Shown here piece by piece: positions 7,760 through 60,756 of a DNA stretch of 64,000 nucleotides. Origin of the DNA: Candidatus Nealsonbacteria bacterium (GTDB lineage: Bacteria > Patescibacteriota > Minisyncoccia > Minisyncoccales > RBG-13-42-11); NCBI GenBank assembly GCA_019923655.1, contig JAHXGL010000001.1, forward strand, positions 3,653-67,652, read 5' to 3'. The stretch's first letter is position 1. Every line of letters starts with the position of its first letter. Made by a program: the position numbers and the translations under genes. The notes beneath the pieces were generated by a model. That model was not told where the DNA came from, did not search any database, and was given only the letters and a program-made list of their open reading frames with translations.

Positions 7760-7762
7760 TAT

Positions 7763-21228: not shown

Positions 21229-21249
21229 AATTGTAGGATGTAAAATAAT

Positions 21250-21335: not shown

Positions 21336-21340
21336 CATAT

Positions 21341-31405: not shown

Positions 31406-31441
31406 CTGGTATGGGCGTGCCAGACAAAAGTATGGTTCTAG

Positions 31442-34618: not shown

Positions 34619-35383
34619 ATGAATATTATTTGGCACGGACAATCTTGTTTTCAAATTACTATCCAGAAAGGGAAAAACAATTTGGTCAATATTGTTATTG
34701 ATCCTTTTGATGAAACAATTGGCTTGCGAGTTCCCAAGCTGGAGGCCGATATTTTATTAGTTTCTCATAGCCACGCAGACCACAACAATAGAAAAGCAGT
34801 GGTCTCCCCGGCAGGATCAGGGCAAGTTCCTTTTTTAGTTGACGGCCCGGGTGAATATGAAGTAAAAGGAGTTTTCATTCAAGGGATTGATTCATATCAT
34901 GATTCTTTACTTGGCAGAGAAAGGGGATTAAACACCATTTATATTATTGAAGCTGAAGAAATGAAGATTTGCCACCTTGGAGATTTAGGACAAAAAGAAT
35001 TGACCGATGAACAAATTGAGAAGATTAACGAGGTTGATATTTTAATGATTCCGATTGGCGGTCTCTTTACAATTTCAGCCAAAGAGGCAATGAAAATAAT
35101 CTCTCAAATTGAGCCCAGGATCGTTGTCCCGATGCATTATTGCCTTCCAAAGCTAAAAATAGAGGGATTAGAAGATTTAGATAAATTTTTTAAAGCAATC
35201 GGAATAAAAAAAATAGAACCTTTGTCAAAGCTTTCTATTAAGAAAAAAGATATTTCGTCGGAAGAAGCGAGGATAATAGTCTTCCAAATCCGAAAGGATT
35301 TGGAAACGAAGTCTTCCAAACTTCAAAGAAATTTGGAAACGAAGTCTTCCAAATCCGAAAAAATTTGGAAACGAAGTTTTTAG
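34619..35383 (+). CDS. MBL-fold metal-dependent hydrolase (UPF0173-like) with a repeat-encoded C-terminal tail
   Basis: VSHSHADHNN metal motif. The last ~31 codons (IRKDLETKSSKLQRNLETKSSKSEKIWKRSF) come from palindromic units. Confidence 0.75.
   Translation: MNIIWHGQSCFQITIQKGKNNLVNIVIDPFDETIGLRVPKLEADILLVSHSHADHNNRKAVVSPAGSGQVPFLVDGPGEYEVKGVFIQGIDSYHDSLLGRERGLNTIYIIEAEEMKICHLGDLGQKELTDEQIEKINEVDILMIPIGGLFTISAKEAMKIISQIEPRIVVPMHYCLPKLKIEGLEDLDKFFKAIGIKKIEPLSKLSIKKKDISSEEARIIVFQIRKDLETKSSKLQRNLETKSSKSEKIWKRSF
35280..35376. repeat. Three tandem 32-33-nt palindromic units (TCTTCCAAAyC-loop-rATTTGGAAACGAAG)
   Basis: Units at 35280-35311, 35312-35344 and 35345-35376, read directly. Confidence 0.9.
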
Positions 35384-35396
35384 GTCCCAATAAAAA

Positions 35397-35780
35397 ATGC
35401 TGCGGAAATTACAAAAACAACCTGAACAAGTGAAAAAAATTATACTTTGGTTTGTGGTAATTATTATTGGAATTGTTTTGCTGAATTTTTGGGCAAGGAG
35501 CGTAGGGGAAAGAATGAGAGAATTTCAAGCAGAAGAACTTGATAAAAAATGGAGATTGCCAGAAATTGAAATGCCGGTTTTGGAAATTCCGGAAATTCCG
35601 GAGATTCCGTCGGATATTACCCCGGAGGAATTTTTAAAGAAATTAAAGGAGTTAATGCCAGAACTTCCGGAACAAGAATGGAAACGAATAGAAGAAAGAT
35701 TAAAAGAGATACCGGAACAAGAATGGAAACAGATAGAAGAAAGATTAAAAAAAACAGACGAGACATTAAAAAATGGCTAA
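35397..35780 (+). CDS. Small membrane-anchored protein with a tandem PEQEWK.IEERLK repeat
   Basis: N-terminal TM helix; 45-nt direct nucleotide repeat; overlaps the gyrA start by 8 nt. Confidence 0.5.
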
Positions 35781-39763: not shown

Positions 39764-39867
39764 GTTTCCAAATCCTTTGGCAGTCTTCCAAACCACGAAG
39801 AGGTTTGGAAACGCAGTCTTCCAAACCACGAAGGATTTGGAAACGAATTTGGAAACGAATTTGAAAG
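39764..39867. repeat. Array of TCTTCCAAACC...GGTTTGGAAACG palindromic units (2 full units plus partial ones)
   Basis: Full units at 39784-39816 and 39817-39847, read directly; the array ends 5 nt before the ATG at 39872. Confidence 0.9.
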
Positions 39868-48968: not shown

Positions 48969-50909
48969 ATGAAAAAACAAACTAAAAATAAAAAAGAGGC
49001 AACCTATACAGCAAAAGATATTTATGTCTTGGAGGGCTTGGACCCGGTCAGAAAGAGGCCGGGAATGTATATTGGGACAACCGGGACCGACGGTCTGCAT
49101 CATTTAATTTATGAAACAACTGATAATGCGTTGGATGAATTTATGATGGGATATGGAGACCAGATGGAAATTACGCTTTTGCCAAATGGCCGGGTGAAAG
49201 TGACTGATAATGGCAGAGGCATTCCGGTTGATAGGCACGCCCAAACCAAGAAATCAGCTTTAGAAACAGTGATGACTACTTTGCATGCCGGGGCAAAATT
49301 CGGCGGCAAATCTTATCAGATTTCCGGCGGGCTGCACGGGGTAGGGGTTTCAGTAGTTTGCGCTTTGTCGCGCTGGATGAGGGTTGAAGTTTGCCGACAG
49401 GGCATAAAATACGCCCAGGAGTATGCTAAGGGCAAAGCAAAAACAAAAGTTAAAAAAATTGACGTTTGCAAACAATCAGGAACCACTGTTATTTTTGAAC
49501 CAGATCCGGAAATCTTTAAGGGGTTTGGGGAATCGCTTAAATTTGATTTCAGAAAGATCTTAAACCATCTTCGTCAGCAGTCCTATCTGATAAAAGGAAT
49601 AAAAACAATAATTAGAGACGAGCGGCTTAGGGAAAAGAAAAGCTATAGTTTTTATTTTAGCGGCGGACTGGCTTCTTACATAAAATATTTAACGCGTGGA
49701 GCTGTTTCTAGACAGAGAAATATTTTTTACGGCCAAGGCGAGAAGAATGGAATTTTAGTTGAAGCGGTTTTTCAGTACACTCAGGAATACGAGTGTTACG
49801 AAGAGAGTTTCGCCAATAATATTAATACCGGAGAAGGCGGTACTCACTTAACAGGATTCAGAACCGCCCTGACAAGAACATTCAATGATTACGCGAGAAA
49901 GAATGGTTTTCTTAAAGAGAACGGAGAGAATTTAACAGGTGAAGACATAAGAGAAGGTTTAACCAGCGTAGTTTCGGTTAAAATAAAAGAGCCCCAATTT
50001 GAAGGACAGACAAAAGCGAAATTAGGAAATCCTGAAGCAAGGCCGGCGGTAGAGCAGGTAGTGGCAGAAACTTTAATTGATTGGCTTGAAAGAAATCCCC
50101 AGGATGCCAGGGCAATTATTGAAAATTGCTTAATAGTGGCTAAAGCAAGAAAGGCGGCTAAAGCGGCAAAAGAAATTGTGCTAAGAAAAGGGGCGTTAGA
50201 TGGATTGGCTCTGCCTGGAAAATTAGCTGATTGCGCCTCAAAAAAGCCAGAGGAATCAGAACTTTATATTGTTGAAGGCGCCAGCGCCAGCGGCAGTTGT
50301 AAAATGGGAAGAGATCGGAGATTTCAAGCCATACTGCCTTTGCGGGGAAAAATTTTAAATGTTGAGAGGGCTCGTTTAGATAAAATTCTTAGTTCAAAAG
50401 AGATTAAGTCGCTGATTATTGCTCTCGGCACTGCTATTGCTGAAGATTTTAACATAAACAACGCAAGATATCACAGAATTATTTTAACCTTGGACGCAGA
50501 TATTGACGGCTCTCACATTAGAACCCTGCTGCTTACATTTTTTTACCGGTATTTTAAGCCGTTGATTGAAAAAGGCTATCTCTACATTGCCCAGCCGCCG
50601 CTTTATAAAATACAAGTTGGGAAACAAAGAGAATATGTCTATACCGAAGAACAAAAAATTAAACTTTTGAAAGGAATAAAAAAAGAAAAAGGAATTACTA
50701 TTCAAAGATATAAAGGTTTAGGAGAAATGAATCCGGAAGAATTATGGTCAACGACAATGAATCCGAAAAACAGGACTTTACTTCAGGTAACCATTGAAAA
50801 CGTTAAAGAGGCTGACCGAATTTTTGATATTTTAATGGGCGAAGAAGTTTTACCAAGGAAAAAATTTATTCAAACACACGCTAAACAGGTCAAAAATCTT
50901 GATATTTGA
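48969..50909 (+). CDS. gyrB: DNA gyrase subunit B
   Basis: LEGLDPVRKRPGMYIG, GGLHGVG, the EGASA(S)GS Toprim region, PLRGKILNVE. Confidence 0.96.
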   Translation: MKKQTKNKKEATYTAKDIYVLEGLDPVRKRPGMYIGTTGTDGLHHLIYETTDNALDEFMMGYGDQMEITLLPNGRVKVTDNGRGIPVDRHAQTKKSALETVMTTLHAGAKFGGKSYQISGGLHGVGVSVVCALSRWMRVEVCRQGIKYAQEYAKGKAKTKVKKIDVCKQSGTTVIFEPDPEIFKGFGESLKFDFRKILNHLRQQSYLIKGIKTIIRDERLREKKSYSFYFSGGLASYIKYLTRGAVSRQRNIFYGQGEKNGILVEAVFQYTQEYECYEESFANNINTGEGGTHLTGFRTALTRTFNDYARKNGFLKENGENLTGEDIREGLTSVVSVKIKEPQFEGQTKAKLGNPEARPAVEQVVAETLIDWLERNPQDARAIIENCLIVAKARKAAKAAKEIVLRKGALDGLALPGKLADCASKKPEESELYIVEGASASGSCKMGRDRRFQAILPLRGKILNVERARLDKILSSKEIKSLIIALGTAIAEDFNINNARYHRIILTLDADIDGSHIRTLLLTFFYRYFKPLIEKGYLYIAQPPLYKIQVGKQREYVYTEEQKIKLLKGIKKEKGITIQRYKGLGEMNPEELWSTTMNPKNRTLLQVTIENVKEADRIFDILMGEEVLPRKKFIQTHAKQVKNLDI

Positions 50910-50920
50910 TTATTAATGAT

Positions 50921-51005
50921 ATAGAGTGTAGAATAATATAGAAAAAGGAAGGTAGAGGGCAAAAAACTTTTAACTACATTCTACATTCTACATTCTACAT
51001 TCTAA
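50921..51005. repeat. Second copy of the inverted heptamer-array element (core at 50949-51004)
   Basis: aaggtagagggcaaaaaacttttaactacattctacattctacattctacattcta read directly; ends 5 nt before the secE ATG. Confidence 0.9.
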
Positions 51006-51009
51006 ACTT

Positions 51010-51210
51010 ATGAACTTAACAAACATTCCAAATAAAGCCATTACTTTCTTAAAAGAAGTTCGTTTGGAGATGAGAAAATCTAACTGGCCGACCAGAGAAG
51101 AAACCATTAAATATACTTTGATTGTAATTGGGGCTTCAATAGTGGTAGCTATTTATTTAGGCGGACTTGATGTTTTGTTTACTTTCTTAATTGGGGAGTT
51201 TATACTATAA
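51010..51210 (+). CDS. secE: Preprotein translocase subunit SecE
   Basis: 66 aa, FLKEVRLEMRKSNWPTREE plus a single TM helix; precedes nusG. Confidence 0.88.
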   Translation: MNLTNIPNKAITFLKEVRLEMRKSNWPTREETIKYTLIVIGASIVVAIYLGGLDVLFTFLIGEFIL

Positions 51211-51219
51211 TGTCTGAAT

Positions 51220-51765
51220 ATGCCTGAACAGCAAATTTTACAAGAAAAAAAATGGTATGTTTTGCATACTTATTCTGGATACGAAGACGCGGTTGCCAAG
51301 AATCTGAAACAAAGAATTGAGACTTTGGGCATGGAAGATAAGATTTTTAATGTCTTGGTGCCCAGAGAAAAAAAGATTAAAATAAAAGACGGTAAAAGGA
51401 AAGTGATTGAAGAGAAAATTTATCCCGGCTATGTTTTGGTGGAAATGATTATTACTAATGATTCCTGGTATGTCGCGAGAAACACGCCTAATGTAACCGG
51501 TTTTATCGGAGCCGGAATTATCCCTATTCCGATTTCAATTAAGGAAATTGAAAGTTTGAAAAAGAGAATGGGCGCAGAAAAGCCCCAATATAAAATAGAT
51601 GTTAAAGATGGCGATTCAGTGAAAATTATTGACGGCCCATTTAAGGATTTTAACGGAAAGGTTTCAGGGATTGACCAGGAGAAAGGAAAAATAAAGATTT
51701 TGGTTAATATGTTTGGTCGAGATACGCCGGTGGAATTGGATTCTTTACAAATTAAAAAGATATAA
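51220..51765 (+). CDS. nusG: Transcription termination/antitermination factor NusG
   Basis: KWYVLHTYSGYE NGN domain; C-terminal KOW (GDSVKIIDGPFKDFNGKV). Confidence 0.95.
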   Translation: MPEQQILQEKKWYVLHTYSGYEDAVAKNLKQRIETLGMEDKIFNVLVPREKKIKIKDGKRKVIEEKIYPGYVLVEMIITNDSWYVARNTPNVTGFIGAGIIPIPISIKEIESLKKRMGAEKPQYKIDVKDGDSVKIIDGPFKDFNGKVSGIDQEKGKIKILVNMFGRDTPVELDSLQIKKI

Positions 51766-51790
51766 TTTAAGCGCGTTTTGAGCTTTATTC

Positions 51791-52213
51791 ATGCCAAAAA
51801 AAATTAAAGCCATTATAAAATTACAGATTTCAGCTGGTCAAGCCACGCCAGCTCCGCCGGTTGGGCCTGCTTTGGCTCAACATGGTTTGAATATCGCTGA
51901 ATTTTGCCAGAAATTTAACGATGCCACAAAAGACAATCAGGGTTTTAAGATTCCGGTTGAGATTACGGTTTATGAAGACCGGACTTATAATTTTGTATTG
52001 AAACAGCCGCCAGCTTCGGAATTGCTACTAAAAGCGGCTGGCATTGAAAAGGGGTCGGGCAAGCCGAATAAAACCAAAGTTGCTAAAATTACTAAAAATC
52101 AGTTGCAAGAAATTGCCGAGAAAAAAATGCCGGATTTAAATACTGATGACATTGAACAGGCAATAAAAATAATTGAAGGCACAGCTAAATCAATGGGCAT
52201 AGAAATAAAGTAA
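51791..52213 (+). CDS. rplK: 50S ribosomal protein L11
   Basis: [27 protein letters not shown]. Confidence 0.96.
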
Positions 52214-52222
52214 ATAGAATAT

Positions 52223-52576
52223 ATGTTGATAAAAATTATAAGAGATTCAATTACTAAAGGAGAACTTGTCAATATTGCTAAGGAGCAATTTGGTGATTTG
52301 GTGAAAGTTGTTGTAGATGTTAATCAAGAAATTATGGCAGTTGGAAGCGAACTTCATGCTGATGGAGAGGTGGCGTTGACCGAACAAGGAGGATCTAGGC
52401 GTGAAGATACTTGGGGCATAAACATCTATCCTGAAAAGGATAGCGAGGATTGGATTGAATTTGACTCCGTAATTAATTTGAAGCCTTCTTTTGGTAATCG
52501 ATCCAGGGGCGTTGACAACCCTGTAATTCAAAGAAAAATTAGAAATATTGTAGAGAAATTAGTTTTAAATCGATGA
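52223..52576 (+). CDS. Small conserved hypothetical protein. It resembles what I recall as DUF5674, but this is unverified.
   Basis: 117-aa ORF; overlaps the next ORF by 4 nt (ATGA). Confidence 0.55.
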   Translation: MLIKIIRDSITKGELVNIAKEQFGDLVKVVVDVNQEIMAVGSELHADGEVALTEQGGSRREDTWGINIYPEKDSEDWIEFDSVINLKPSFGNRSRGVDNPVIQRKIRNIVEKLVLNR

Positions 52577-52902
52577 AATTTTTCCACAAAAAGTTGGCTT
52601 CAGGGAGATGGTTTCAACTTTCTTTGGCGGAACAACTGGCAAATATTGGCAGTGAAGTAAGTAGGGCGCATGGGTGGCGGGAAAGAGACAGGAAGGTTTT
52701 TTGGGGAGCAGTTGACAGGGCATTAGAACTTTTCGATTTAACGCTTGAAGATACTCGCTGGCAGGGCCGTCGTAGAGAAATCGCAAGAGCGAGGGAAATA
52801 TTTTGCGATGCAGTGCTGGGAGGAAAAGAATACGGAAGTTCTCTTAAAGATTTAGCGCCTTACTTTGATCAATTTGCGATTGCTACCCGTCTTTATAAAT
52901 AA
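52573..52902 (+). CDS. Hypothetical all-helical-looking protein (109 aa)
   Basis: ORF with visibly higher GC than its neighbours; translationally coupled to the preceding ORF. Confidence 0.5.
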   Translation: MKFFHKKLASGRWFQLSLAEQLANIGSEVSRAHGWRERDRKVFWGAVDRALELFDLTLEDTRWQGRRREIARAREIFCDAVLGGKEYGSSLKDLAPYFDQFAIATRLYK

Positions 52903-52913
52903 AAACTTGCTAT

Positions 52914-53486
52914 ATGATTCTATCCGACCGAGATATCAAAAAATACCTAAAAGAAGGAAAAATTAAAATTATTCCCGAGCCAAATTTTGAAGAACAATTA
53001 GGTCCTTGTTCTTTGGACTTGCATTTAGGAAATGTTTTCAAATCCTTCAAACCAACTCAATATCCATACTTAGACCTGAAAACAAAAAAGAGTTTTGAAG
53101 AAGTTATGGATGAAACAACAATAGAGGATAACGCGCCTTTTATTTTACAGCCAAAAGGGTTTGTTATTGCCGTAACCAAAGAAGAAATTATTTTACCTGA
53201 TTATATTATGGCTCGATTGGACGGAAGGAGTTCTTTGGGGAGATTGGGGCTGGTAGTTCATTCAACTGCGGCCAGGTTTGACCCTGGTTGGAAAGGGAAA
53301 GCGGTAATGGAGTTGGGCAATCTTGGGATTATGCCGATTATTTTATATGCCGGAATGAGAATTTGCGCTATAACTTTTGAGACGCTTACTAGTCCGGCTG
53401 AAATTCCTTACTTAAAACAGAAAGACCACAAGTATGCCGGACAAAATAATTCTACTGCCAGTAAACTTAACGAAGAGCCCAGATGA
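52914..53486 (+). CDS. dcd: dCTP deaminase
   Basis: MILSDRDIKKYL..., ARLDGRSSLGRLGLVVH, DPGWKG...ELGN. Confidence 0.9.
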   Translation: MILSDRDIKKYLKEGKIKIIPEPNFEEQLGPCSLDLHLGNVFKSFKPTQYPYLDLKTKKSFEEVMDETTIEDNAPFILQPKGFVIAVTKEEIILPDYIMARLDGRSSLGRLGLVVHSTAARFDPGWKGKAVMELGNLGIMPIILYAGMRICAITFETLTSPAEIPYLKQKDHKYAGQNNSTASKLNEEPR

Positions 53487-55093
53487 AACCTTTTTTAACC
53501 CGCAATCTAAAAGTCCAGTTTTTAGGGATAACTCCTGTTTTAAGAGATAAGACAGGAGTTTTAAACCCTCAACAAATTGTTGCCCTCTCAGCTCTTTTGA
53601 CTTTTAAGGGGAAGACAATAAAAAATCTCTTTAAAGAAATTAAAAACAATGGAGAGAATTTAGACGAGAAGATAAAATTAATTCTGCAAAAATCATCTTT
53701 ACGGGGACATGCCTCCATATCAACCACTCCCTCTCTTTGTTTAACCTATGAAGGAAGCAAATTTTTAGATTCTGCCTTAACTGGTATTTATTTTTCTTCT
53801 TCTCTGGTTTCTTCTGGCAGAAGAACAGGAACCATTGAAAAAGATATTGTTTTTCCGAATAAGATTTATTCCAATAAAAAAGCTAAGGGAATATATCAAG
53901 AAACTTCAGAAAAGATTATCAGATTTTTTAATTTTCTTTTATCTCAAGAGGTTAAAAAAGATGAAGCCAGCAAGATTTTACAATACGGCATTTATGGCAC
54001 CGGTATTATTCAGCTACCAATAGAAACAATTATTGGCTTAAAAAGAGAGTACCAGAGAGAGGAAAAATGGATGCCGGAAGAAGTAGGAATTTTACTCAGA
54101 AAAATAGAAAAAGAAGCTAAAAAATTAGGAATTGATTGGCTTTACGCTACCAGAGAAGCAGCGCCCAGAAATGTTTTCCCTTTTCCCAATATATTTAAAG
54201 ACCCCAAAGAAGGAAATTTGGTTAGAGGAATAAAGAAGAAAATAAAACTGGAGCAAGGAGCAAGAGTGGTTTCAACGGATATTTTGATTCCCTCCGAGCT
54301 AAAAAAGAGATTGATTAATTTAGAAAAAAAGACAAAAGAAACTTTTTCTTCTTTAAGAAAAATTAAAAAAGATTGGCAACAGCTCCTTTCTCTGAGACAG
54401 GAAATTTTGAGGGACTATAATTTAGCTTTAAGATTTAAGGTCTTGTCTTCAGCGCCCTGGCGGGTTTGGGGAGAAAAAAAGAGGCATCGGACTTGCCTTC
54501 AAGTTATTGAGTCAATTTATTATTGCGTTGATAGAGCGGCTAAAGTTTTCAGAAAATTTGAGCGGCAAATTAGAAAAGGGAAAATTAACAAGAGAATAAC
54601 AAGAGAGGTTGGGGAAGTTTTTTCTATCCCGCCATCAATAAAACAAAAACAAGAGCTTTTATCTGAATATTTATTAGTTGCGCTAAGGGCTTTTGGGGAT
54701 TATAAAAAGTTAATTAACTTAGGAATCAAACCCAAAGAAGCAATTTTTTTAATTCCCCGAGCAACCAAAATTGATATTTTACAGGAATATGATTTATATA
54801 ATCTTTTGACCGGCTACTATCCCTTGCGGCTTTGTAAGACAGCTGAAGAGGAAATGAGAAGAAATACATTGAAGGAAGTTGCTCAAATTAAAAATGTCTT
54901 GGCTAAAAAAGGCTATGGCTGGTTGAATGGGCTTATTGGTCCCAAGTGTGAGATTATTGGCTTTTGTCCGGAAGAAAAGAGCTGCGCTATGATTAAAACA
55001 TCGGTTAGAAAATATAATGATAAATTTCATCAAGAAATGAAAGAGGAATTGAAAAGATTATTTCAAGAAAATTTAAAAAACTTAGGTGAATAA
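53483..55093 (+). CDS. thyX: Long (536 aa) ThyX-family FAD-dependent thymidylate synthase-like protein: degenerate N-half, canonical-looking C-half
   Basis: N-half: LRGHASIS...EGSKFLDSALT. C-half: KKRHRTCLQVIESIYY (RHR...ES..Y) and IPRATKIDIL...YYPLRLCKTAEEEMR (the ThyX C-terminal motif). Confidence 0.7.
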   Translation: MKPFLTRNLKVQFLGITPVLRDKTGVLNPQQIVALSALLTFKGKTIKNLFKEIKNNGENLDEKIKLILQKSSLRGHASISTTPSLCLTYEGSKFLDSALTGIYFSSSLVSSGRRTGTIEKDIVFPNKIYSNKKAKGIYQETSEKIIRFFNFLLSQEVKKDEASKILQYGIYGTGIIQLPIETIIGLKREYQREEKWMPEEVGILLRKIEKEAKKLGIDWLYATREAAPRNVFPFPNIFKDPKEGNLVRGIKKKIKLEQGARVVSTDILIPSELKKRLINLEKKTKETFSSLRKIKKDWQQLLSLRQEILRDYNLALRFKVLSSAPWRVWGEKKRHRTCLQVIESIYYCVDRAAKVFRKFERQIRKGKINKRITREVGEVFSIPPSIKQKQELLSEYLLVALRAFGDYKKLINLGIKPKEAIFLIPRATKIDILQEYDLYNLLTGYYPLRLCKTAEEEMRRNTLKEVAQIKNVLAKKGYGWLNGLIGPKCEIIGFCPEEKSCAMIKTSVRKYNDKFHQEMKEELKRLFQENLKNLGE

Positions 55094-55106
55094 TGAGTAA
55101 AAAATT

Positions 55107-55712
55107 ATGATTTTAGGGGTAAAAAAACTTTTAGAGCTGGTTAAAAAAAAGCCCAGCACCAGAGCGAAGCTCGGTGCTGGACCAGTCCCGCACCGAAACA
55201 AAGTTTCTGGTGCGGGGAAATTGGTTGAAAATTTGTCTGAAAGAGAACTGAAGAGTCCTGAAGGGGCGGGCTTTGATTTAAGAATAGGCCAGTTATACCA
55301 AATCAAAGGGAAAGGATTTTTAGGGACCGAAGAAAGAGAGACGCCGAAAATGGAATTAATGGCAAAATATGAAGAAGGAAAAATTACAAAGGTATGTTTA
55401 GAACCCGGGACATATTACTCAATGAAAACAGTTGAGGAAGTTAATATGCCGAACAATCTTTTAGCCATAATGACTCCGCGCTCTACTTTATTTCGCTCCG
55501 GAGTTTACATTTTTGGCGGTCAAACTCCGCCCGGATATAAAGGCGGCTTGACAATGGGTATTTATAATTTTAGAAACGAGAAATTTGAGTTGGAAATGGG
55601 TTCGCGAGTTGTCCATATTATGTTTTTTGAAGTAAAGGGAAACACAAATTTATACCGCGGCCAATGGCAAGGCGGTCGAGTTGCCACAAAAAAGAAAGAA
55701 AAACAAATCTAA
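55107..55712 (+). CDS. dCTP deaminase/dUTPase-superfamily protein (second copy) with a 22-codon GC-rich insertion near the N-terminus
   Basis: MILGVKKLLELV N-terminus parallels dcd; GFDLRIG, TPRSTLFRSG, PPGYKGGLTMG. Confidence 0.8.
   Translation: MILGVKKLLELVKKKPSTRAKLGAGPVPHRNKVSGAGKLVENLSERELKSPEGAGFDLRIGQLYQIKGKGFLGTEERETPKMELMAKYEEGKITKVCLEPGTYYSMKTVEEVNMPNNLLAIMTPRSTLFRSGVYIFGGQTPPGYKGGLTMGIYNFRNEKFELEMGSRVVHIMFFEVKGNTNLYRGQWQGGRVATKKKEKQI
55151..55217. repeat. Two adjacent GC-rich hairpins (CCAGCACC.GAGC-GAA-GCTCGGTGCTGG and CCCGCACC-N13-GGTGCGGG), 66-67 nt in total, in frame
   Basis: Read directly; encodes PSTRAKLGAGPVPHRNKVSGAG. Confidence 0.85.
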
Positions 55713-55718
55713 AAATCT

Positions 55719-55748
55719 TTGACATATTAGACACCGAGTGTCTAACAT
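55719..55748 (+). promoter_or_regulatory. TTGACA -35 box followed by the palindrome ATaTTAGACAC-CGA-GTGTCTAACAT (contains a TAACAT -10-like hexamer 18 nt after the -35)
   Basis: Read directly, upstream of the orphan ORF. Confidence 0.5.
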
Positions 55749-55788
55749 ACATTTATCTATTAATCTATTAAAGGAAAGGAAAAAAACT

Positions 55789-56568
55789 ATGTTAGAAAAA
55801 TTTAAAGGCGAGGTTCCATTACAGGGAAAAGAGATTTCACCACAAGAAAAAATTGAAGGGGTTGAGCAGCCGAAAATTTCTGAACACCTCTCATTTTTGG
55901 AAAAATCTGTTCATCGATATAGGGGACTGGATCAATCTAAGACAGAACAGCTATTTCGTAATGCTTTTGAAAAATTGCCTAAAAGTAAGCAAAAAACAAT
56001 TTCATTGGAACTCCAAGCTCTTGGTATTGAAATTGACACACTTGAAAAACAAGATATTGAAATTTCGCCTGTCTGGCGATCAGAAATAAGCAATCGTATT
56101 TTAGGCGCCATAGAGAAGAGTGGAGTGGTGGCGAGCGCCAAAGAGGGCGGAGTTGATAGAACAAGAAAACAAGTGGGTGAAGTAGCAGAGAAAGCAGCGG
56201 CTTATTTGATTGAATATGAAACGTTTGCGCAAAGCGTCAAGGATAAATCAGGCAACACGAAAAAAAGCGTAGAATATCTGTTGGCTATATCTTCCGGTAT
56301 TAAACAAGAGCTTGGGCGATTGCAATTAACCGATGTGTCTTCCGCTCAATCGCAAAATGAATTAAAAGATGAGCGCGAGGCGCGATATCCTGTTATTACA
56401 AACGTTTCTTATTTTTACCGCGATATTGATAACGCAATTTATATGGAAGGTCTTATCGGATTTTCTACCCTCAATAAACTCTTAAAAGAATTTTGTTCCG
56501 CCAAGGAATATTTAGAAAAGACTGTTTTACAAACCAAGGCAAAAAAGGCAAAAAGGGCAAAAAAGTGA
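55789..56568 (+). CDS. Hypothetical soluble protein (259 aa) with a Lys-rich C-terminus
   Basis: The ATG at 55789 is preceded by AAGGAAAGGA; the track start at 55738 lies inside the palindrome. Confidence 0.55.
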   Translation: MLEKFKGEVPLQGKEISPQEKIEGVEQPKISEHLSFLEKSVHRYRGLDQSKTEQLFRNAFEKLPKSKQKTISLELQALGIEIDTLEKQDIEISPVWRSEISNRILGAIEKSGVVASAKEGGVDRTRKQVGEVAEKAAAYLIEYETFAQSVKDKSGNTKKSVEYLLAISSGIKQELGRLQLTDVSSAQSQNELKDEREARYPVITNVSYFYRDIDNAIYMEGLIGFSTLNKLLKEFCSAKEYLEKTVLQTKAKKAKRAKK

Positions 56569-56595
56569 CATGTTAGACACCGAGTGTCTAACATG
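56565..56595 (+). promoter_or_regulatory. GTGACA followed by the perfect 27-nt palindrome CATGTTAGACAC-CGA-GTGTCTAACATG, upstream of tmk
   Basis: Read directly; a TATAAT hexamer also occurs at 56618-56623, 6 nt before the tmk ATG. Confidence 0.5.
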
Positions 56596-56629
56596 CATTG
56601 TTTTAATAAAAATTTAGTATAATTTAACC

Positions 56630-57205
56630 ATGCAAAAGAATCCTTACTCTGGGAAATTTATTGCTTTTGAGGGTTTAGATGGTTCTGGTCAAAGCACCCA
56701 GGCCAATGTTTTGAAAGATTTTTTGACTGAAACAGGCAATCAGGCCTTTTTAACCAAAGAGCCAACTAATAATATTATTGGCGGGCTTATTCGGGGTCAG
56801 TTGACCAATAACTGGAAGACCGACCCTAAGTGCTTGCAATTGCTTTTTTCTGCGGACAGAGCTTTTTATTTAGAAAAAGAGGTAATCCCCTTATTAGAAA
56901 AAGGGATTACAGTGATTACCGACCGTTATTTTTTATCAACCATTGCTTACGGCGCTGTAGAAATAGAGGATGTAGATTGGTTGATTGAGATTAATAAGCT
57001 TTTTATTCTGCCAGATATTACTTTTCTAATAAAGGTTTCTCCAAAAATTTGTCTTGAAAGAATAAGGGAAACTCGTTTCCACATTGAACTTTTTGAAAAA
57101 GAACAAGCTCTTTTGCAGGTTTGGCAAAATTATGAAAGCATTGCTAAAAGATTTGAAAATATTTATATTATAGATGGAGAAAAAACAATTAAAGAAGTTT
57201 TTTGA
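56630..57205 (+). CDS. tmk: Thymidylate (dTMP) kinase
   Basis: GKFIAFEGLDGSGQSTQ P-loop; DRYFLSTIAYG. Confidence 0.92.
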   Translation: MQKNPYSGKFIAFEGLDGSGQSTQANVLKDFLTETGNQAFLTKEPTNNIIGGLIRGQLTNNWKTDPKCLQLLFSADRAFYLEKEVIPLLEKGITVITDRYFLSTIAYGAVEIEDVDWLIEINKLFILPDITFLIKVSPKICLERIRETRFHIELFEKEQALLQVWQNYESIAKRFENIYIIDGEKTIKEVF

Positions 57206-57245
57206 AGAAATTAAAAGCATTCTTGAGGAGTGCCGATAATATTTG

Positions 57246-59228
57246 ATGATTTCTAAAACCGATCCAAAAATTTACAATTTAATCAAAAAAGAAATTATTC
57301 GCCAAAAAAACGGCTTGTCTTTAATTGCTTCTGAAAATTTTGCCAGCCAAGCTGTTTTAGAAGCAATGGGGACTGGCTTAAGCAATAAATATTCTGAAGG
57401 GTATCCGGGAAAGAGGTATTATGGCGGCAATGAATTTATTGACCAAATTGAAACAATAGCCATTGAACGGGCTAAAAAATTGTTCAAGGCGGAACATGCC
57501 AATGTTCAGCCCCATTCCGGCTCTCAAGCAAATGCCGCGGTTTATCTGGCGCTCCTAAATTACCGAGACAAAATTTTAGGCATTGATTTGTCAGCTGGCG
57601 GGCATTTGACCCATGGCTCTCTGGTTAATTTTTCCGGCCAGCTCTATAATTTTTCTTATTATGGCGTAGATTCTAAAACAGAAAAAGTTGACATAAGAGA
57701 AGTGGAGAAAATAGCTTTAAGGTTTTTACCAAAATTAATTATTGTAAGCACGACTGCTTATTCCCGGATACTTGAATTCAGAAAATTCAGAAAGATTGCC
57801 GATAAAGTAAAGTCCTATTTAATGGCTGATATTGCTCATATTGCCGGCTTGGTAACAGCCGGCCTTCATCCGCATCCTTTTCCTTATTGCGATGTGGTAA
57901 CGACCACTACTCATAAAACATTAAGAGGTCCTCGCGGCGGATTGATTTTATCTAAAATCAAAGACAGAATAGACCCAAGAGGGAAAATGAATTTAGCTCA
58001 GAAAATTGATAAAGCGGTTTTTCCGGGAATACAGGGAGGGCCATTAGACCATGTTATTGCCGCCAAAGCAGTTTGTTTTTTGGAAGCAATGAAGCCATCT
58101 TTCAAAAAATATCAAAAACAGATTATTTTGAACGCCAAAGCAATGGCTGATGAGTTTCAAAAACAAGGGATTAGAGTGGTTAGCGACGGGACAGACAATC
58201 ATTTAATGGTTATAGATATTTCTCCTTTTAATGTTGGTTCTAAACTAATTCAGGATGAATTGGATAAAGTCGGCATTTATGTTAATCGCAACGCTATTCC
58301 TTTTGACAAAAGACCGCCTTACAATCCTTCAGGAATCAGATTGGGTTCGCCAACCATAACAACCATGGGCTTAAGAGAAAAAGAATGTCGGCAGGTAGTG
58401 AAATTAATTGTTGCTCTAATAAAAAATATAGAAACACAGAAAATAAAAACAGAGATCAAGAAAGAGGTAAAGAAATTGGTTAAAAATTATAGAAATTGTC
58501 AAAAACGCAGTTTTAGATTAAAGAGTATCAAAATGAAAAACATTGCTAAGATTATTGACCAAACTTTTCTAAAAAAAGGAGCACTAGATGAAGAAATAAA
58601 GAAAATTGCCGAGGAAGCAAAAGAGTATAATTTTCGGGCATTTTGCGTTCTTCCGGAGCATACTGAATTAGCCAAAGAAATACTTAAACATACTGATGTC
58701 AAGGTAACTACCCTGATTGACGAACCAACAGGGGCAAGTCCTACTGAACAAAGAAAAAAAATGGTTAACAAAGCTAAAATAGATGGCAGTGATGAAATAG
58801 AATTGGTAATGAAAATAGATGATTTCAAAAATAAGAAATATAAAGAGGTTTTAGAGGACTTAGAAGAACTCTGTCCAATTCTGCCAACGAAAGTAATTAT
58901 TGGCTCGGGTTATTTGACTGATCAAGAGATAAAAAAGGCGTCAGAAATGACCAAACAAGCCAAAGCAATTTGTGTTAAAACCGCTACTGTGGATGACCCT
59001 TTGGACAGTTCAGAATTAAAAGAAAAAGCTAAACACATCAGAATAATGAAGGAAACAGCTCCTGGTTTACTAATAAAAGCGTCTGGAGCAGTCCGAACTT
59101 TAGCTGACTTAGAAATAATGCTCGCGGCCGGCGCTGATATTATTGGCACAAGCTCGGGCAAGGAAATAGTAGATGAGGCCCATGGAAAAGAGGTAAAAGA
59201 AACAAAAGACAATAGAATAGTGGAATAA
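57246..59228 (+). CDS. glyA: Serine hydroxymethyltransferase fused in frame to a DeoC-type (deoxyribose-phosphate aldolase family) domain
   Basis: SHMT: LIASENF, YSEGYPGKRYYGG, TTTTHKTLRGPRGG (PLP Lys). There is no stop codon before the DeoC-like domain, which begins at the internal ATG 58533: IDQTFLK..., VKT(A), IKASGAVRT...GADIIGTSSG. Confidence 0.85.
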   Translation: MISKTDPKIYNLIKKEIIRQKNGLSLIASENFASQAVLEAMGTGLSNKYSEGYPGKRYYGGNEFIDQIETIAIERAKKLFKAEHANVQPHSGSQANAAVYLALLNYRDKILGIDLSAGGHLTHGSLVNFSGQLYNFSYYGVDSKTEKVDIREVEKIALRFLPKLIIVSTTAYSRILEFRKFRKIADKVKSYLMADIAHIAGLVTAGLHPHPFPYCDVVTTTTHKTLRGPRGGLILSKIKDRIDPRGKMNLAQKIDKAVFPGIQGGPLDHVIAAKAVCFLEAMKPSFKKYQKQIILNAKAMADEFQKQGIRVVSDGTDNHLMVIDISPFNVGSKLIQDELDKVGIYVNRNAIPFDKRPPYNPSGIRLGSPTITTMGLREKECRQVVKLIVALIKNIETQKIKTEIKKEVKKLVKNYRNCQKRSFRLKSIKMKNIAKIIDQTFLKKGALDEEIKKIAEEAKEYNFRAFCVLPEHTELAKEILKHTDVKVTTLIDEPTGASPTEQRKKMVNKAKIDGSDEIELVMKIDDFKNKKYKEVLEDLEELCPILPTKVIIGSGYLTDQEIKKASEMTKQAKAICVKTATVDDPLDSSELKEKAKHIRIMKETAPGLLIKASGAVRTLADLEIMLAAGADIIGTSSGKEIVDEAHGKEVKETKDNRIVE

Positions 59229-59232: not shown

Positions 59233-60756
59233 ATGTATAAACCAACTCTAGGCATTGAGGCACACGTACAACTCAAGACAAAATCAAAAATGTTTTGTAG
59301 TTGTAGAAATAATCCTAATGAGCGTCATCCTAACGTCCTAATCTGTCCAACTTGCCTTGGACATCCGGGAACTCTTCCGGTTATCAATCAAGAGGCGGTC
59401 AGAAAAACGATAAAAACCGGTTTGGCTTTGAATTGCCAAATTCCCGAATATTCAAAATTTGACAGGAAAAATTATTTTTATCCTGATTTGCCAAAGGGCT
59501 ATCAGATTTCTCAATTGTATGAGCCATTTTGCAAGAATGGATTTTTGGAAATTAATGGAAAAAAAATAAGAATTCGGGAAGCGCACCTTGAAGAAGATAC
59601 CGGTAAATTGATTCACCCTAAAGGCGCTGATTATTCTTTGGTGGATTTTAATCGGGCCGGAATTCCTTTGATGGAGTTAGTTACTGAACCGGATATTACT
59701 TCAGCCAAAGAAGCAAGAAAGTTTGCTGAAGAGCTTCAGCTTATTTTAAGATACCTTGATGTTTCAAATGCTGATATGGAAAAAGGAGAGCTAAGAATTG
59801 AGGTAAATATATCTTTAACAAAAACAAGCAAATTAGGGACAAAAGTAGAAATAAAAAACATTAACTCTTTTCGCGCAGTAGAAAAGGGGATTGATTACGA
59901 AATTAAAAGACAGGCGAAAATTCTGAACAGCGGAACTAAAGTCATTCAGGAGACCAGGGGTTGGCATGATGCCAAAAAACGCACTTTTAGCCAAAGAAAA
60001 AAAGAGGAAACACATGATTACCGATATTTTCCAGAACCGGATTTGCCGTTGCTGCGAATCGCTAAAGAATTTATTCATCAAATTAAAGCTGAAATTCCGG
60101 AGCTGCCGCAGCAGAGAAGAGAGCGATTCAAAAAAGAATATGAAATAGAGGATAAAGACATAGAAATTTTTGTCTACAATAAAAAACTCGGAGAATATTT
60201 TGAAAAAGCGGCATCAGAACTTATAAATTGGGTCAAAGAAACGGAAAGAAAAAATAGCGTAGAAAAAGATGAATTTACTAAATTAGTTAAACTCTGCTCA
60301 AATTATATAATTAGTGATTTACAAGGATTAATAAAGAAAACCCCCTACCACTTTTTTGAGAAAAAAGAAGGGGGGTTGATTACTCCGGAAAATTTCGCTG
60401 AATTTGCGTGTTTGATTTATAAAGACAAAATTTCAAGTAAAATCGCAAAAATGGTTCTCTCTGAAATGTTCTTGACCGGGGCTGATCCTTCTCAAATTAT
60501 TGAAGAAAAGGAATTAACCCAAATTGCGAATGTTAAAGAACTCGCAAAAATTATAAAAGAAGTGCTTTCTAAAAACCCAAAGCCGGTTCAAGATTATAAA
60601 AAAGGAAAACAAAACGCCTTCCAATTTTTAATCGGCCAAATAATGGCACAGAGCAAAGGAAAAGCAAATCCTCAAATAGTCCGTAAACTGCTTCTCCGCA
60701 GAATGAGTGAGGCAACGGTCACGGGAATGATAACCAAAGAATCAACAGGGCTTTAA
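59233..60756 (+). CDS. gatB: Asp/Glu-tRNA(Asn/Gln) amidotransferase subunit B
   Basis: GIEAHVQL.T.SKMFC.C, CPTCLGHPGTLPV, NRAG.PL.E.V..PD. Confidence 0.93.
   Translation: MYKPTLGIEAHVQLKTKSKMFCSCRNNPNERHPNVLICPTCLGHPGTLPVINQEAVRKTIKTGLALNCQIPEYSKFDRKNYFYPDLPKGYQISQLYEPFCKNGFLEINGKKIRIREAHLEEDTGKLIHPKGADYSLVDFNRAGIPLMELVTEPDITSAKEARKFAEELQLILRYLDVSNADMEKGELRIEVNISLTKTSKLGTKVEIKNINSFRAVEKGIDYEIKRQAKILNSGTKVIQETRGWHDAKKRTFSQRKKEETHDYRYFPEPDLPLLRIAKEFIHQIKAEIPELPQQRRERFKKEYEIEDKDIEIFVYNKKLGEYFEKAASELINWVKETERKNSVEKDEFTKLVKLCSNYIISDLQGLIKKTPYHFFEKKEGGLITPENFAEFACLIYKDKISSKIAKMVLSEMFLTGADPSQIIEEKELTQIANVKELAKIIKEVLSKNPKPVQDYKKGKQNAFQFLIGQIMAQSKGKANPQIVRKLLLRRMSEATVTGMITKESTGL

What the first reader, a model, noticed from the sequence alone, without database searches (positions are those of the whole stretch)
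55719..56595. Near-identical 12-3-12 palindromes, each fused to a -35-like hexamer, bracket an orphan ORF in the dTMP cluster
(T/G)TGACAT(A/G)TTAGACAC-CGA-GTGTCTAACAT(A/G)CAT occurs at 55719-55751 and 56565-56598. In both copies TTGACA or GTGACA overlaps the left arm and TAACAT lies in the right arm, 18 nt after the -35-like hexamer. This is the classic layout of a repressor operator spanning a promoter. One copy precedes the 259-aa orphan ORF and the other precedes tmk and glyA-deoC. Alternatively, the two copies mark the boundaries of an inserted gene cassette.
Basis: partly seen in the sequence, partly recalled or inferred. Interest (0 to 1): 0.55.

Follow-up and report, generated by a model that had tools for sequence, protein, structure and literature searches.

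The report
REP-type mobile palindromes, not an operator
The two near-identical palindromes are copies of a small dispersed hairpin repeat (a REP element) that is spread through ultra-small Patescibacteria (CPR) genomes, probably by a dedicated IS200-like tyrosine transposase, so they are not a locus-specific repressor site.

Summary
Two 34-nt units (55719-55752 and 56565-56598) are 31/34 identical, and each holds the core TGTTAGACAC-CGA-GTGTCTAACA.

The core is not local. Exact copies occur in 29 stretches of GTDB genomes, all labelled Patescibacteria/CPR, and in more than 120 metagenome contigs, giving 142 non-redundant sites. Flanks are not conserved, so the -35-like hexamer is only a lineage-specific flank.

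About 22% of sites lie inside ORFs, against 79% for random positions. Most of those are in one reading frame, encoding VRHxVSN.

In at least 11 loci, two copies bracket a ~222-aa gene. That gene matches Pfam Y1_Tnp and carries the HUH motif NHFH and the tyrosine motif YIHRNP. It also carries a third, variant copy at codon 57. This is the REP-RAYT ("REPtron") architecture. Five more such genes, fetched by protein alone, are flanked by related palindromes, and three of them share recR-RAYT-rplU synteny.

The window has no RAYT. Its copies sit 12 and 2 nt after stop codons, as known REPs do. Relatives differ in gene content exactly at these repeats, including an extra pheA between copies.

Verdict: a new member of a known kind. 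The operator/promoter reading is not supported. The cassette-boundary reading is partly supported.

The parts
55719..55752 (.). REP copy 1. The 34-nt lineage-specific unit is TTGACA-TATTAGACAC-CGA-GTGTCTAACA-TACAT, with the 23-nt family core at 55725-55747. There is one arm mismatch (A/C on the + strand, G-U on the - strand).
   Evidence: RNA fold is -7.9 kcal/mol on the + strand and -13.5 on the - strand. The same copy is at the same place in L050 (76% id) and L163 (same strain).
56565..56598 (.). REP copy 2. The unit is GTGACA-TGTTAGACAC-CGA-GTGTCTAACA-TGCAT, with the perfect 23-nt core at 56571-56593. It overlaps the stop codon TGA at 56566-56568.
   Evidence: RNA fold is -20.1 and -17.8 kcal/mol, z-scores -6.7 and -5.9. 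It is flagged terminator-like on both strands. It corresponds to a fusion of the L104 copies that flank pheA.
55789..56568 (+). 259-aa conserved hypothetical gene bracketed by the two REP copies (the 'orphan').
   Evidence: It has 20 homologues at 39-60% identity in CPR, in different genomic contexts. No Pfam or NCBIfam match. The AlphaFold model is all-helical (pLDDT 77) with no PDB fold match.
55107..55712 (+). Upstream gene, dCTP deaminase/dUTPase-like, 201 aa. REP copy 1 follows its stop codon.
   Evidence: Pfam PF22769 and PF00692. Homologues are mostly 179 aa.
56630..57205 (+). Downstream gene tmk (thymidylate kinase). A consensus TATAAT lies at 56618-56623, between REP copy 2 and the ATG.
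   Evidence: Pfam PF02223. The TATAAT is read directly from the sequence. The same leader is conserved in L104.

Best explanation
The two palindromes are non-autonomous copies of a REP-type element (repetitive extragenic palindrome). Its core is TGTTAGACAC-YNR-GTGTCTAACA. It belongs to a REP-RAYT system that is widespread in Patescibacteria/CPR.

The cognate gene is not in this window. It encodes a ~222-aa IS200-like Y1 HUH transposase (RAYT/TnpA-REP type). That gene is itself bracketed by two copies of the palindrome and carries a third, in-frame variant copy at codon 57.

By analogy with characterised RAYTs and IS200/IS608 TnpA (inferred, not shown here), the enzyme recognises the hairpin that the palindrome forms in single-stranded DNA, then cuts and rejoins next to it. 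This is how copies get seeded around the chromosome.

Copies persist where a hairpin is tolerated. That is mostly just downstream of stop codons, and occasionally in frame within surface loops of proteins.

In this window the two copies are direct repeats of a 34-nt lineage-specific version of the unit. They occupy the two short intergenic gaps on either side of a variable accessory gene. Their likely local effects are secondary and inferred:
- a stable 3' hairpin on the dcd-like and 259-aa-gene transcripts, acting as a partial terminator or mRNA stabiliser;
- a substrate for gain or loss of the genes between copies.
For: 1. Dispersal and taxonomic restriction. Exact matches to TTAGACACNNNGTGTCTAACAT occur in 29 stretches of GTDB species representatives, all labelled Patescibacteria/CPR, with up to 5 per genome. 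More than 120 metagenome contigs also match, giving 142 non-redundant sites.

2. Only the 23-nt core is conserved. Arm variants are often symmetric or compensated.

3. Extragenic bias. 22.5% of sites lie inside ORFs, against 78.9% of random positions in the same loci. In 18 of 44 tandem-gene cases the site is within 13 nt of the upstream stop codon, as published for 'uni-REPs' (PMC3733652).

4. The only recurrent neighbouring gene is the transposase. At least 11 distinct ~222-aa genes are bracketed by two copies, plus an internal copy at codon 57.

5. The gene product has the right signature.
- Pfam Y1_Tnp scores 44.8-47 bits against a cut-off of 23.
- The best and only NCBIfam hit is REP_Tyr_transpos.
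- A profile of the family hits ISDra2 TnpA in the PDB across the HUH and Tyr motifs.
- NHuH is present in 120/120 and Y[IV]HxNP in 100/120 top homologues. Y---NP is the class-2 (TnpA-REP) signature in PMC6006769.

6. Independent confirmation. Five RAYT loci were fetched by protein only (L160, L161/L162, L165, L167, L168). All are flanked by the same palindrome or by co-varying versions of it.

7. recR-RAYT-rplU synteny is shared by three genomes. This indicates a chromosomally fixed, vertically inherited gene, as described for RAYTs.

8. Two other features match published REP systems: in-frame intragenic copies and REPs inside the transposase gene (PMC6006769; PMC3733652).
Against: - No RAYT gene is in the 64-kb window, and the rest of this genome could not be searched.
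- Copy number looks low: 2 in 64 kb, at most 5 exact copies in any GTDB representative, and no extra copies in the 20-kb RAYT loci L160 and L167. Classical REPs number tens to hundreds per genome.
- There is no GTAG/CGTC 'foot'.
- The RAYT-like protein is below NCBIfam's equivalog cut-off (42.5 against 80 bits).
- No target-site duplication or other transposition signature was found.
- Binding or cleavage by the enzyme is untested.
- The two window copies share extra flanks (TGACA and RCAT) that create a good -35/-10 match, so a promoter role in this lineage is not excluded.
Confidence: 0.8

Rival explanations
1. Repressor operator overlapping a sigma-70-type promoter. A dimeric regulator binds the palindrome and blocks transcription starting from TTGACA/GTGACA-N18-TAACAT, co-regulating the 259-aa gene and tmk-glyA.
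For: Both copies give 10/12 and 9/12 matches at 18-nt spacing. The TGACA flank recurs in copies from the same lineage: L050, L104, L109 and L052. Both copies lie upstream of a gene start, at 41 and 36 nt.
Against: - The -35-like flank is absent from the family at large.
- Copies lie inside ORFs.
- Copies lie preferentially right after stop codons.
- Some copies lie between convergent genes.
- There is no associated regulator or functionally coherent set of neighbouring genes.
- tmk has its own consensus TATAAT at 56618-56623, downstream of the palindrome.
- The promoter scan is barely above background (57 hits against 38).
Confidence: 0.05
2. Hairpin selected mainly as an RNA element. It would act as an intercistronic intrinsic terminator or 3'-end mRNA stabiliser that happens to have a conserved sequence (an exapted REP). 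This is not exclusive of the best explanation.
For: - Both copies start 2-12 nt after a stop codon.
- Family-wide, 18/44 sites in tandem gene pairs are within 13 nt of the upstream stop.
- Flanks tend to be A-rich on the left and T-rich on the right, and they extend the stem by 4 or more bp in 21 sites against 2.4 expected.
- Copy 2 folds at about -18 to -20 kcal/mol and is flagged as a bidirectional terminator.
- REPs are reported to act this way (PMC3733652).
Against: - Terminators are not normally conserved in sequence across distant lineages.
- Copy 1 on the + strand folds weakly (-7.9 kcal/mol) and has no T-run.
- 22% of copies are inside coding regions, where termination would be harmful.
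- This reading does not explain the association with a transposase gene.
Confidence: 0.25
3. Cassette borders. Pairs of direct REP copies delimit single-gene modules that are inserted, excised or deleted, either by RAYT acting on the two hairpins like IS200 ends, or by recombination between the 34-nt repeats.
For: - L104 (96% id) has 259-aa gene-REP-pheA-REP-REP-tmk where the window has a single REP. The window copy equals the left flank of the first L104 copy joined to the right flank of the second.
- L050 diverges completely 10 nt after copy 1.
- L164 has dcd-like directly followed by deoC, with no REP, 259-aa gene, tmk or glyA.
- Homologues of the 259-aa gene sit in unrelated contexts.
- Other REP-bracketed single genes are RAYT (11 loci), an SNase, a GNAT, pheA and a 315-aa unknown.
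Against: - Homologues of the 259-aa gene elsewhere are not flanked by this palindrome.
- No genome was found with dcd-like-single REP-tmk.
- REPs may simply accumulate in any short intergenic gap of a plastic region, so bracketing could be incidental.
- No circular or excised forms and no identical cassette at two sites were seen.
Confidence: 0.18
4. Chromosomal protein-binding site of another kind, such as a parS-like centromere, a DNA-uptake sequence or a nucleoid-organising site, recognised by a conserved CPR protein.
For: - The sequence is conserved across CPR lineages.
- Extra half-sites lie next to full sites.
- Copies in genes show a reading-frame bias, as is seen for uptake sequences.
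- There is a slight excess of DnaA boxes nearby: 6 within 150 nt against about 1.6 expected.
Against: - Density is far too low for an uptake sequence: no isolated half-sites occur in 64 kb.
- There is no association with parAB or origin genes.
- The strong, specific association is with a Y1 transposase gene.
Confidence: 0.03

Closest known systems
REP / BIME elements with RAYT (TnpA-REP, e.g. E. coli YafM) and the REPIN-RAYT systems of Pseudomonas (Nunvar 2010; Bertels & Rainey 2011, PMC3116915; Ton-Hoang 2012; Messing 2012, PMC3479197)
   Same: - A short stem-loop repeat that is dispersed and mainly extragenic.
[quoted passage not shown]
- The cognate Y1 HUH transposase gene is flanked by the repeats (a 'REPtron').
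- The transposase sits in conserved synteny.
- REP sequence co-varies with its RAYT (L061, L165 and L168 variants).
   Different: - The palindrome is perfect and symmetric, with a 3-nt loop and no GTAG/CGTC foot.
- Copy number appears low.
- The same 23-mer accompanies RAYTs that are only 56-67% identical, in several CPR lineages.
- The protein is below the NCBIfam REP_Tyr_transpos cut-off.
- It occurs in Patescibacteria, for which I found no report.
TnpA-Y1 subclass 2.4 (Bertels group 4) of Quentin et al. 2018 (PMC6006769)
   Same: REP copies are inserted in frame within the tnpA-REP gene itself, in addition to the flanking copies. The HUH motif is of the form NH[IFV]H.
   Different: [quoted passage not shown] Here the copy sits at a fixed position (codon 57), upstream of HUH.
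- The Y motif here is YIHRNP, against YIxNNP.
- The FQ motif and the ~222-aa length resemble subclass 2.1, which is reported to lack REPs.
- Subclass assignment was not tested phylogenetically.
Rickettsia palindromic elements (RPE) and intragenic GTAG/CGTC REPs (Ogata 2000; Di Nocera 2013, PMC3733652)
   Same: Palindromic repeats are inserted in frame in housekeeping genes, here KsgA, FolD, SecA C-terminus and a MurA/AroA-like gene, and presumably translated.
   Different: The element is much shorter: 23-27 nt (8-9 aa), against about 100-150 nt for RPE-1. It also has a clearly linked transposase gene.
IS200/IS605 insertion sequences (IS608, ISDra2)
   Same: A Y1 HUH transposase fold and motifs, with hairpins flanking the gene. 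Single-strand 'peel and paste' chemistry is the inferred mechanism.
   Different: - The gene is in conserved chromosomal synteny rather than in multiple identical mobile copies.
- The left and right hairpins are the same sequence.
- There is no tnpB.
- The solo hairpins disperse, rather than the gene.
Operator-promoter palindromes conserved across phyla (e.g. the CIRCE/HrcA site TTAGCACTC-N9-GAGTGCTAA)
   Same: A phylogenetically conserved perfect inverted repeat beginning TTAG and ending CTAA, located in intergenic DNA.
   Different: - There is no consistent position relative to promoters.
- There is no regulon.
- Copies occur within ORFs.
- The repeat is linked to a transposase, not a regulator.

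Membership tests
REP-RAYT system (REPtron / REPIN-RAYT) | Short (about 20-40 nt) palindromic repeat able to form a stem-loop | tested here: met
   The core is a 23-nt 10-3-10 palindrome (12-3-12 in copy 2). Fold energies range from -7.9 to -20.1 kcal/mol.
REP-RAYT system (REPtron / REPIN-RAYT) | Dispersed in many copies, predominantly extragenic | tested here: met
   There are 142 non-redundant sites. 22.5% lie inside ORFs against 78.9% for random positions.
REP-RAYT system (REPtron / REPIN-RAYT) | High copy number within one genome (tens to hundreds) | tested here: inconclusive
   There are 2 copies in this 64-kb window and at most 5 exact copies per GTDB representative. Whole genomes could not be scanned with mismatches allowed.
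REP-RAYT system (REPtron / REPIN-RAYT) | A Y1 (HUH) transposase gene flanked on both sides by the same repeat | tested here: met
   At least 11 loci found through the repeat, plus 5 loci fetched by protein only. It is not present in the window itself.
REP-RAYT system (REPtron / REPIN-RAYT) | Catalytic HUH motif and class-2 tyrosine motif Y---NP | tested here: met
   The motifs are MPNHFHL and YIHRNP, invariant in alignment A4. They occur in 120/120 and 100/120 top homologues. The motif definition is from PMC6006769.
REP-RAYT system (REPtron / REPIN-RAYT) | Protein passes curated family thresholds | tested here: inconclusive
   Pfam PF01797 Y1_Tnp scores 44.8-47 bits against a cut-off of 23, so that is met. 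NCBIfam NF047646 REP_Tyr_transpos is the only hit but scores 42.5 bits against a cut-off of 80, so that is not met.
REP-RAYT system (REPtron / REPIN-RAYT) | Transposase gene chromosomally fixed and vertically inherited (low copy, conserved synteny) | tested here: met
   The order (dnaB-)recR-RAYT-rplU(-rmuC) is shared by L160, L161/L162 and L168, which come from three assemblies. Copy number per genome was not tested.
REP-RAYT system (REPtron / REPIN-RAYT) | Conserved GTAG or CGTC tetranucleotide 'foot' next to the hairpin | tested here: not met
   No base outside TG...CA is conserved family-wide. Only a lineage-specific TGACA flank is seen.
REP-RAYT system (REPtron / REPIN-RAYT) | The transposase binds and cleaves the REP hairpin in single-stranded DNA | not testable with these tools
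   This needs biochemistry.
Operator overlapping a sigma-70 promoter | -35 and -10 hexamers at 16-18 nt spacing that are conserved wherever the palindrome occurs | tested here: not met
   They are present in the two window copies. The -35 flank is not conserved across 142 sites.
Operator overlapping a sigma-70 promoter | Sites lie upstream of regulated genes, with a cognate regulator or coherent regulon | tested here: not met
   Sites occur inside ORFs and right after stop codons. No recurrent neighbour other than the transposase was found.
Intrinsic (rho-independent) terminator | G+C-rich stem followed directly by a T-run | tested here: inconclusive
   Copy 2 is flagged on both strands and copy 1 is not. 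Flanks across the family are A-rich on the left and T-rich on the right.
IS200/IS605 insertion sequence | The whole unit (gene plus distinct left and right hairpin ends) is mobile and present in several near-identical copies | tested here: not met
   The gene is in conserved synteny. The flanking hairpins are the same sequence on both sides. The solo palindromes are what is dispersed.
Integron attC site | Outer R'' (RYYYAAC) ... R' (GTTRRRY) in that order, with imperfect internal pairing, 57-141 nt | tested here: not met
   GTTAGAC and GTCTAAC fit the two consensus strings but occur in the opposite order. The element is a 23-nt perfect palindrome. This is a direct reading.

The most novel reading that the evidence does not exclude
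In these tiny genomes, pairs of REP copies may act as portable borders for single-gene modules. The RAYT, or recombination between the repeats, would then shuffle accessory genes in and out of conserved operons. Examples here are the 259-aa gene, pheA, an SNase and a GNAT.

On this reading, a REP-RAYT system with an unusually frozen 23-nt REP would be a gene-cassette engine for CPR bacteria. That REP is shared by RAYTs only 56-67% identical and is embedded at codon 57 of the RAYT gene itself.
Probability: 0.12. Interest if true: 0.7.

Novelty: new member of a known kind. Interest (0 to 1): 0.4.

Why it matters
- CPR/Patescibacteria genomes are about 1 Mb, densely coded, and thought to be poor in classical mobile elements. 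A REP-RAYT system with thousands of RAYT variants in this group (at least 6,729 protein clusters) adds a persistent, vertically inherited repeat system to their biology.
- It explains recurrent perfect palindromes that could otherwise be annotated as operators, promoters or terminators.
- It may explain contig breaks. Several short contigs end at or near copies (for example L050, L163, L016).
- It explains 8-9-residue VRHxVSN inserts in housekeeping proteins.
- For people who study REPIN-RAYT persistence, one REP core retained while the transposase diverged to about 60% identity is a useful extreme case.
- For this locus specifically, the dTMP cluster is not shown to be under a shared repressor.

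Tried and rejected
- **Local operator with a regulon.** Clustering genes next to 29 and then 142 sites found no regulator or functional theme.
- **Target-site duplications as in DDE-type MITEs.** The TG...CA ends suggested this, but no direct repeats of 1-10 nt were found at any assumed boundary.
- **parS or origin association.** DnaA boxes are only weakly enriched nearby (6 against about 1.6 expected), and no parAB neighbours were seen.
- **DNA-uptake sequence.** No isolated half-sites occur in 64 kb.
- **Phage origin.** There were 0 hits in 2.9 million viral contigs.
- **Known RNA family.** Rfam found only tRNAs in the window and in three homologue loci.
- **attC-like core sites.** The order of the two consensus strings is reversed.
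- **The 259-aa gene as a degenerate RAYT or recombinase.** It is all-helical, with no HUH motif, no family hit and no structural hit.
- **Literature.** Searches for the sequence itself and for REP/RAYT together with CPR found no prior description. The one paper that mentions both concerns an archaeal RAYT.
- **Finding this organism's own RAYT.** There is none in the window. Candidate unnamed NCBI proteins could not be traced to this assembly.
- **A clean 'empty site' for copy 1 or 2.** L164 lacks the whole REP-gene-REP-tmk-glyA block, so it gives no single-element comparison.
Full report
**The observation.** The window reads TTGACATATTAGACACCGAGTGTCTAACATACAT at 55719-55752 and GTGACATGTTAGACACCGAGTGTCTAACATGCAT at 56565-56598. 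The two units are 31/34 identical. Copy 2 is a perfect 12-3-12 palindrome, and copy 1 has one A/C mismatch. TTAGACACNNNGTGTCTAA occurs only at these two places, even with three mismatches allowed. The half-site ATGTTAGACAC with at most one mismatch occurs four times, all within the two copies, against 0.33 expected. The -35-like hexamers and TAACAT at 18-nt spacing are there. However, the same scan gives 57 promoter-like hits in 14 kb against 38 in shuffles.

**Position relative to genes.** Pfam places the copies in a run of + strand genes:
- dcd (52914-53486)
- a long thyX-like gene (53483-55093)
- a second DCD/dUTPase-like gene (55107-55712)
- the 259-aa ORF (55789-56568)
- tmk (56630-57205)
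- an SHMT-containing 661-aa ORF (57243-59228)
- gatB (59233-60756)

The 23-nt core of copy 1 starts 12 nt after the TAA of the DCD-like gene. Copy 2 starts 2 nt after the TGA of the 259-aa ORF, and that TGA lies inside 'GTGACA'.

**The '259-aa orphan'.** It is not an orphan. Twenty homologues at 39-60% identity exist, and the named ones come from Nealson-, Portnoy-, Falkow- and Collierbacteria. The 100% hit identifies the window as a Candidatus Nealsonbacteria MAG. The homologues sit in unrelated neighbourhoods, such as after grpE-dnaK-dnaJ plus a tRNA, or after two tRNAs. They are not flanked by this palindrome. The protein has no Pfam or NCBIfam match. An AlphaFold model (pLDDT 77) is all-helical and has no PDB fold match.

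**The palindrome is a dispersed CPR repeat.** Scanning one genome per GTDB species for TTAGACACNNNGTGTCTAACAT returned 29 stretches. All are from records labelled Patescibacteria/CPR: Saccharibacteria, Paceibacterota, Niyogi-, Zambryski- and Adlerbacteria, Minisyncoccales and the Parcubacteria group. Up to five occur in one genome. By my estimate, only a handful of chance hits would be expected across all bacteria. Viral contigs gave none.

After removing duplicates there are 142 sites. Their properties are:
- The conserved unit is TGTTAGACAC-YNR-GTGTCTAACA.
- The loop is CGA/TCG in 62% of sites.
- Nothing outside TG...CA is conserved, apart from a tendency to A on the left and T on the right.
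- The TTGACA/GTGACA of the window copies is therefore not a family feature.
- The TGACA flank recurs only in the window's close relatives: L050, L104, L109 and L052.
- The flanks extend the palindrome by four or more base pairs in 21 sites, against 2.4 expected.
- There is no target-site duplication.
- Arm variants exist, and many are symmetric or compensated.

**Where copies sit.** 22.5% of sites are inside ORFs, against 78.9% of random positions in the same loci. Of 24 sites inside ORFs of 150 aa or more, 21 use one frame and encode (N)VRH(S/R)VSN(I). The other three use the other stop-free frame and encode MLDTxCLT. The host proteins appear to include KsgA, FolD, the SecA C-terminus and a MurA/AroA-like enzyme. 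These identities are from reading the flanking residues and, for KsgA, an alignment with the E. coli protein, not from family searches. Between tandem genes, 18 of 44 sites lie within 13 nt of the upstream stop codon. The median distance is 36 nt to the upstream stop and 90 nt to the downstream start. This is the pattern published for REPs (PMC3733652).

**The associated gene.** Clustering all ORFs within 1.5 kb of the sites gave one large family, 11 distinct proteins of about 222 aa. In each locus:
- one palindrome ends 13-37 nt (mostly 17-20) before the start codon;
- a second lies overlapping the stop codon or up to 37 nt after it;
- a variant copy, TGTTAGACAC-NNN-GTGTTTAACA, lies at codon 57-58 and encodes VRH(S/R)VFN.

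The protein identifies as an IS200-like Y1 transposase of the REP-associated type:
- It matches Pfam PF01797 (Y1_Tnp, IS200-like) at 44.8-47 bits, against a cut-off of 23.
- Its only NCBIfam hit is REP_Tyr_transpos, at 42.5 bits, below the equivalog cut-off of 80.
- A profile of the family hits ISDra2 TnpA (2xm3) across the HUH and tyrosine motifs.
- MPNHFHL and YIHRNP are invariant.
- Y---NP is the signature of class-2 TnpA-Y1, that is TnpA-REP/RAYT (PMC6006769).

A profile search found at least 6,729 protein clusters at E of 1e-20 or better. Every named one among the 120 listed is from CPR.

**Independent confirmation.** Five RAYT loci were fetched by protein alone.
- L167 has the canonical layout.
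- L160 has a nested 17-3-17 version with TGG and CCA loops.
- L161/L162, L165 and L168 have co-varying versions of the palindrome.
- L061 likewise pairs a diverged RAYT with TGTTAAACCC...GGGTTTAACA.
- L160, L161/L162 and L168 share recR-RAYT-rplU synteny. This points to a chromosomally fixed, vertically inherited gene rather than an insertion sequence.

REP-gene-REP with solo REPs elsewhere is the 'REPtron' or REPIN-RAYT architecture. REPs inserted in frame in the tnpA-REP gene, and in unrelated genes, have been described (PMC6006769; PMC3733652).

**What this means for the window.** The window contains no RAYT. The rest of the genome could not be searched. The two copies are solo REPs in two consecutive short intergenic gaps. 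They are direct repeats of a 34-nt lineage-specific version of the unit.

Relatives show that gene content changes at these repeats:
- L163 is the same strain (99.98-100% identity) and has copy 1.
- L050 (76% identity, syntenic with 50379-55755) has copy 1 at the same place but diverges completely 10 nt after it. It also carries an extra copy in the gap corresponding to window 51765-51791.
- L104 (96% and 90% identity in the two aligned flanks) reads 259-aa gene-REP-pheA-REP-REP-tmk. The window's copy 2 equals the left flank of the first copy joined to the right flank of the second.
- L052 has thyX-(half REP + REP)-glyA.
- L164 (73-80% identity) has the DCD-like gene followed directly by deoC and gatB, with none of REP, 259-aa gene, tmk or glyA.
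- Elsewhere, REP pairs bracket an SNase, a GNAT and a 315-aa unknown gene.

It is equally compatible with REPs simply accumulating in the gaps of a plastic region.

**Mechanism: shown and inferred.**

Shown:
- the repeat family and its distribution;
- its extragenic and post-stop bias;
- its in-frame coding copies;
- its physical linkage to a Y1 HUH transposase gene, with co-variation.

Inferred from characterised RAYT and IS200/IS608 enzymes:
- the transposase recognises the hairpin in single-stranded DNA, and cuts and joins next to it, which seeds copies.

Inferred from position and folding (copy 2 at -18 to -20 kcal/mol on either strand; copy 1 at -7.9 and -13.5):
- the local effect is a 3' hairpin on the upstream transcripts, acting as a partial terminator or stabiliser.

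tmk has its own TATAAT at 56618-56623, 6 nt before the ATG. It therefore does not need the TAACAT of the palindrome. Promoter activity of TTGACA-N18-TAACAT is not excluded but has no comparative support.

**Comparison with known systems and novelty.** This is a REP-RAYT system. It departs from the classical ones in four ways:
- a perfect symmetric palindrome without a GTAG/CGTC foot;
- apparently low copy number;
- one 23-nt core shared by RAYTs only 56-67% identical;
- an internal copy fixed at codon 57.

The motifs NHFH, FQ and YIHRNP and the length resemble Quentin's subclass 2.1, reported to lack REPs. The in-gene REP resembles subclass 2.4. I did not classify the family phylogenetically. 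Full-text searches found no description of this sequence or of REP-RAYT in CPR. I rate it a new member of a known kind, of moderate interest.

Noticed in passing
window 20358-20420 (inside the - strand ORF 17479-21228): There are two tandem hairpins, GCCCCGTTAGATAATTTTTATCTAACGGGGC and CTCTGTTAGATAATTTTTATCTAACAGGG. They are compensated variants of the same TGTTAGA...TCTAACA palindrome. Both lie in frame in a 1249-aa ORF and encode LLDKNYLT twice.
   Followed up: partly
window 55150-55215 (N-terminal part of ORF 55107-55712): Two G+C-rich hairpins (CCAGCACC...GGTGCTGG and CCCGCACC...GGTGCGGG) encode a 22-aa insert, PSTRAKLGAGPVPHRNKVSGAG. This makes the DCD-like protein 201 aa where most homologues are 179 aa. 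The same-strain contig L163 has a run of N exactly here.
   Followed up: partly
window 1994-2055 and 7752-7786; 5806-5845, 35245-35410 and 39777-39849; 3775-3841, 21245-21344 and 50939-51004; 26775-26869 and 29909-30003: Several other hairpin or repeat families are dispersed in the window:
- CTGTCGGGG..CCCCGACAG, with one copy overlapping the 3' end of tRNA-Leu 7674-7759;
- TTCCAAACC..GGTTTGGAA, in tandem arrays;
- TAGAAGG/CTACATT heptamer runs;
- a 95-nt repeat at 81% identity.
   Followed up: no
L003 and L004 at 4700-5000 and 5750-6100; L008 at 4800-5000 and 5735-5765: Homologues of the 259-aa gene are flanked by conserved non-coding sequence in different genomes. Upstream is gcaccaCGTAGGAAA...TTTTGGGGGYAAAAACGAATT, directly after a tRNA gene or a tRNA 3' end. 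Downstream is GAATTGTCAGCGGTGCGGCTCCGCCGCCTTTCCGAATT...TTCGGACTAATTCAAGAATACT. No Rfam family matches, and the motif is absent from the window. It could be a structured RNA or the ends of a mobile element.
   Followed up: partly
L097, L105 and L148 (KsgA/RsmA genes); L018: Three different KsgA genes carry the palindrome at the same C-terminal position, encoding MLDT(E/Q/R)CLT. It aligns with native residues (E. coli LFSVEVLT) rather than adding length. L018 KsgA has a separate 7-8-aa VRHSVSN insert before the NxPY motif.
   Followed up: partly
window 56618-56632: A consensus TATAAT lies 6 nt before the tmk ATG, with no Shine-Dalgarno sequence. This suggests a leaderless tmk mRNA. It is conserved in L104.
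   Followed up: no
window 57243-59228; L164 2152-2823: The SHMT ORF runs in frame into a DeoC-like part (...SIK-MKNIAKIIDQ...), giving 661 aa. In L164, deoC is a separate gene that starts with the same MKNIAKIID.
   Followed up: no
window 53483-55093; L052 57-1786: The thyX-like ORF is 536 aa, but Pfam Thy1 matches only residues 324-471. The L052 homologue also appears to carry a long internal insert, judged by reading its sequence only. This may be an intein or homing-endonuclease insertion.
   Followed up: no
L016, L050, L062, L163 and other short contigs: Several contigs end at or within about 100 nt of a palindrome copy. The repeat may therefore break short-read assemblies of CPR genomes.
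   Followed up: no
window 31441-31516: ARAGORN calls a tRNA-Ile with anticodon TAT, which is uncommon in bacteria.
   Followed up: no
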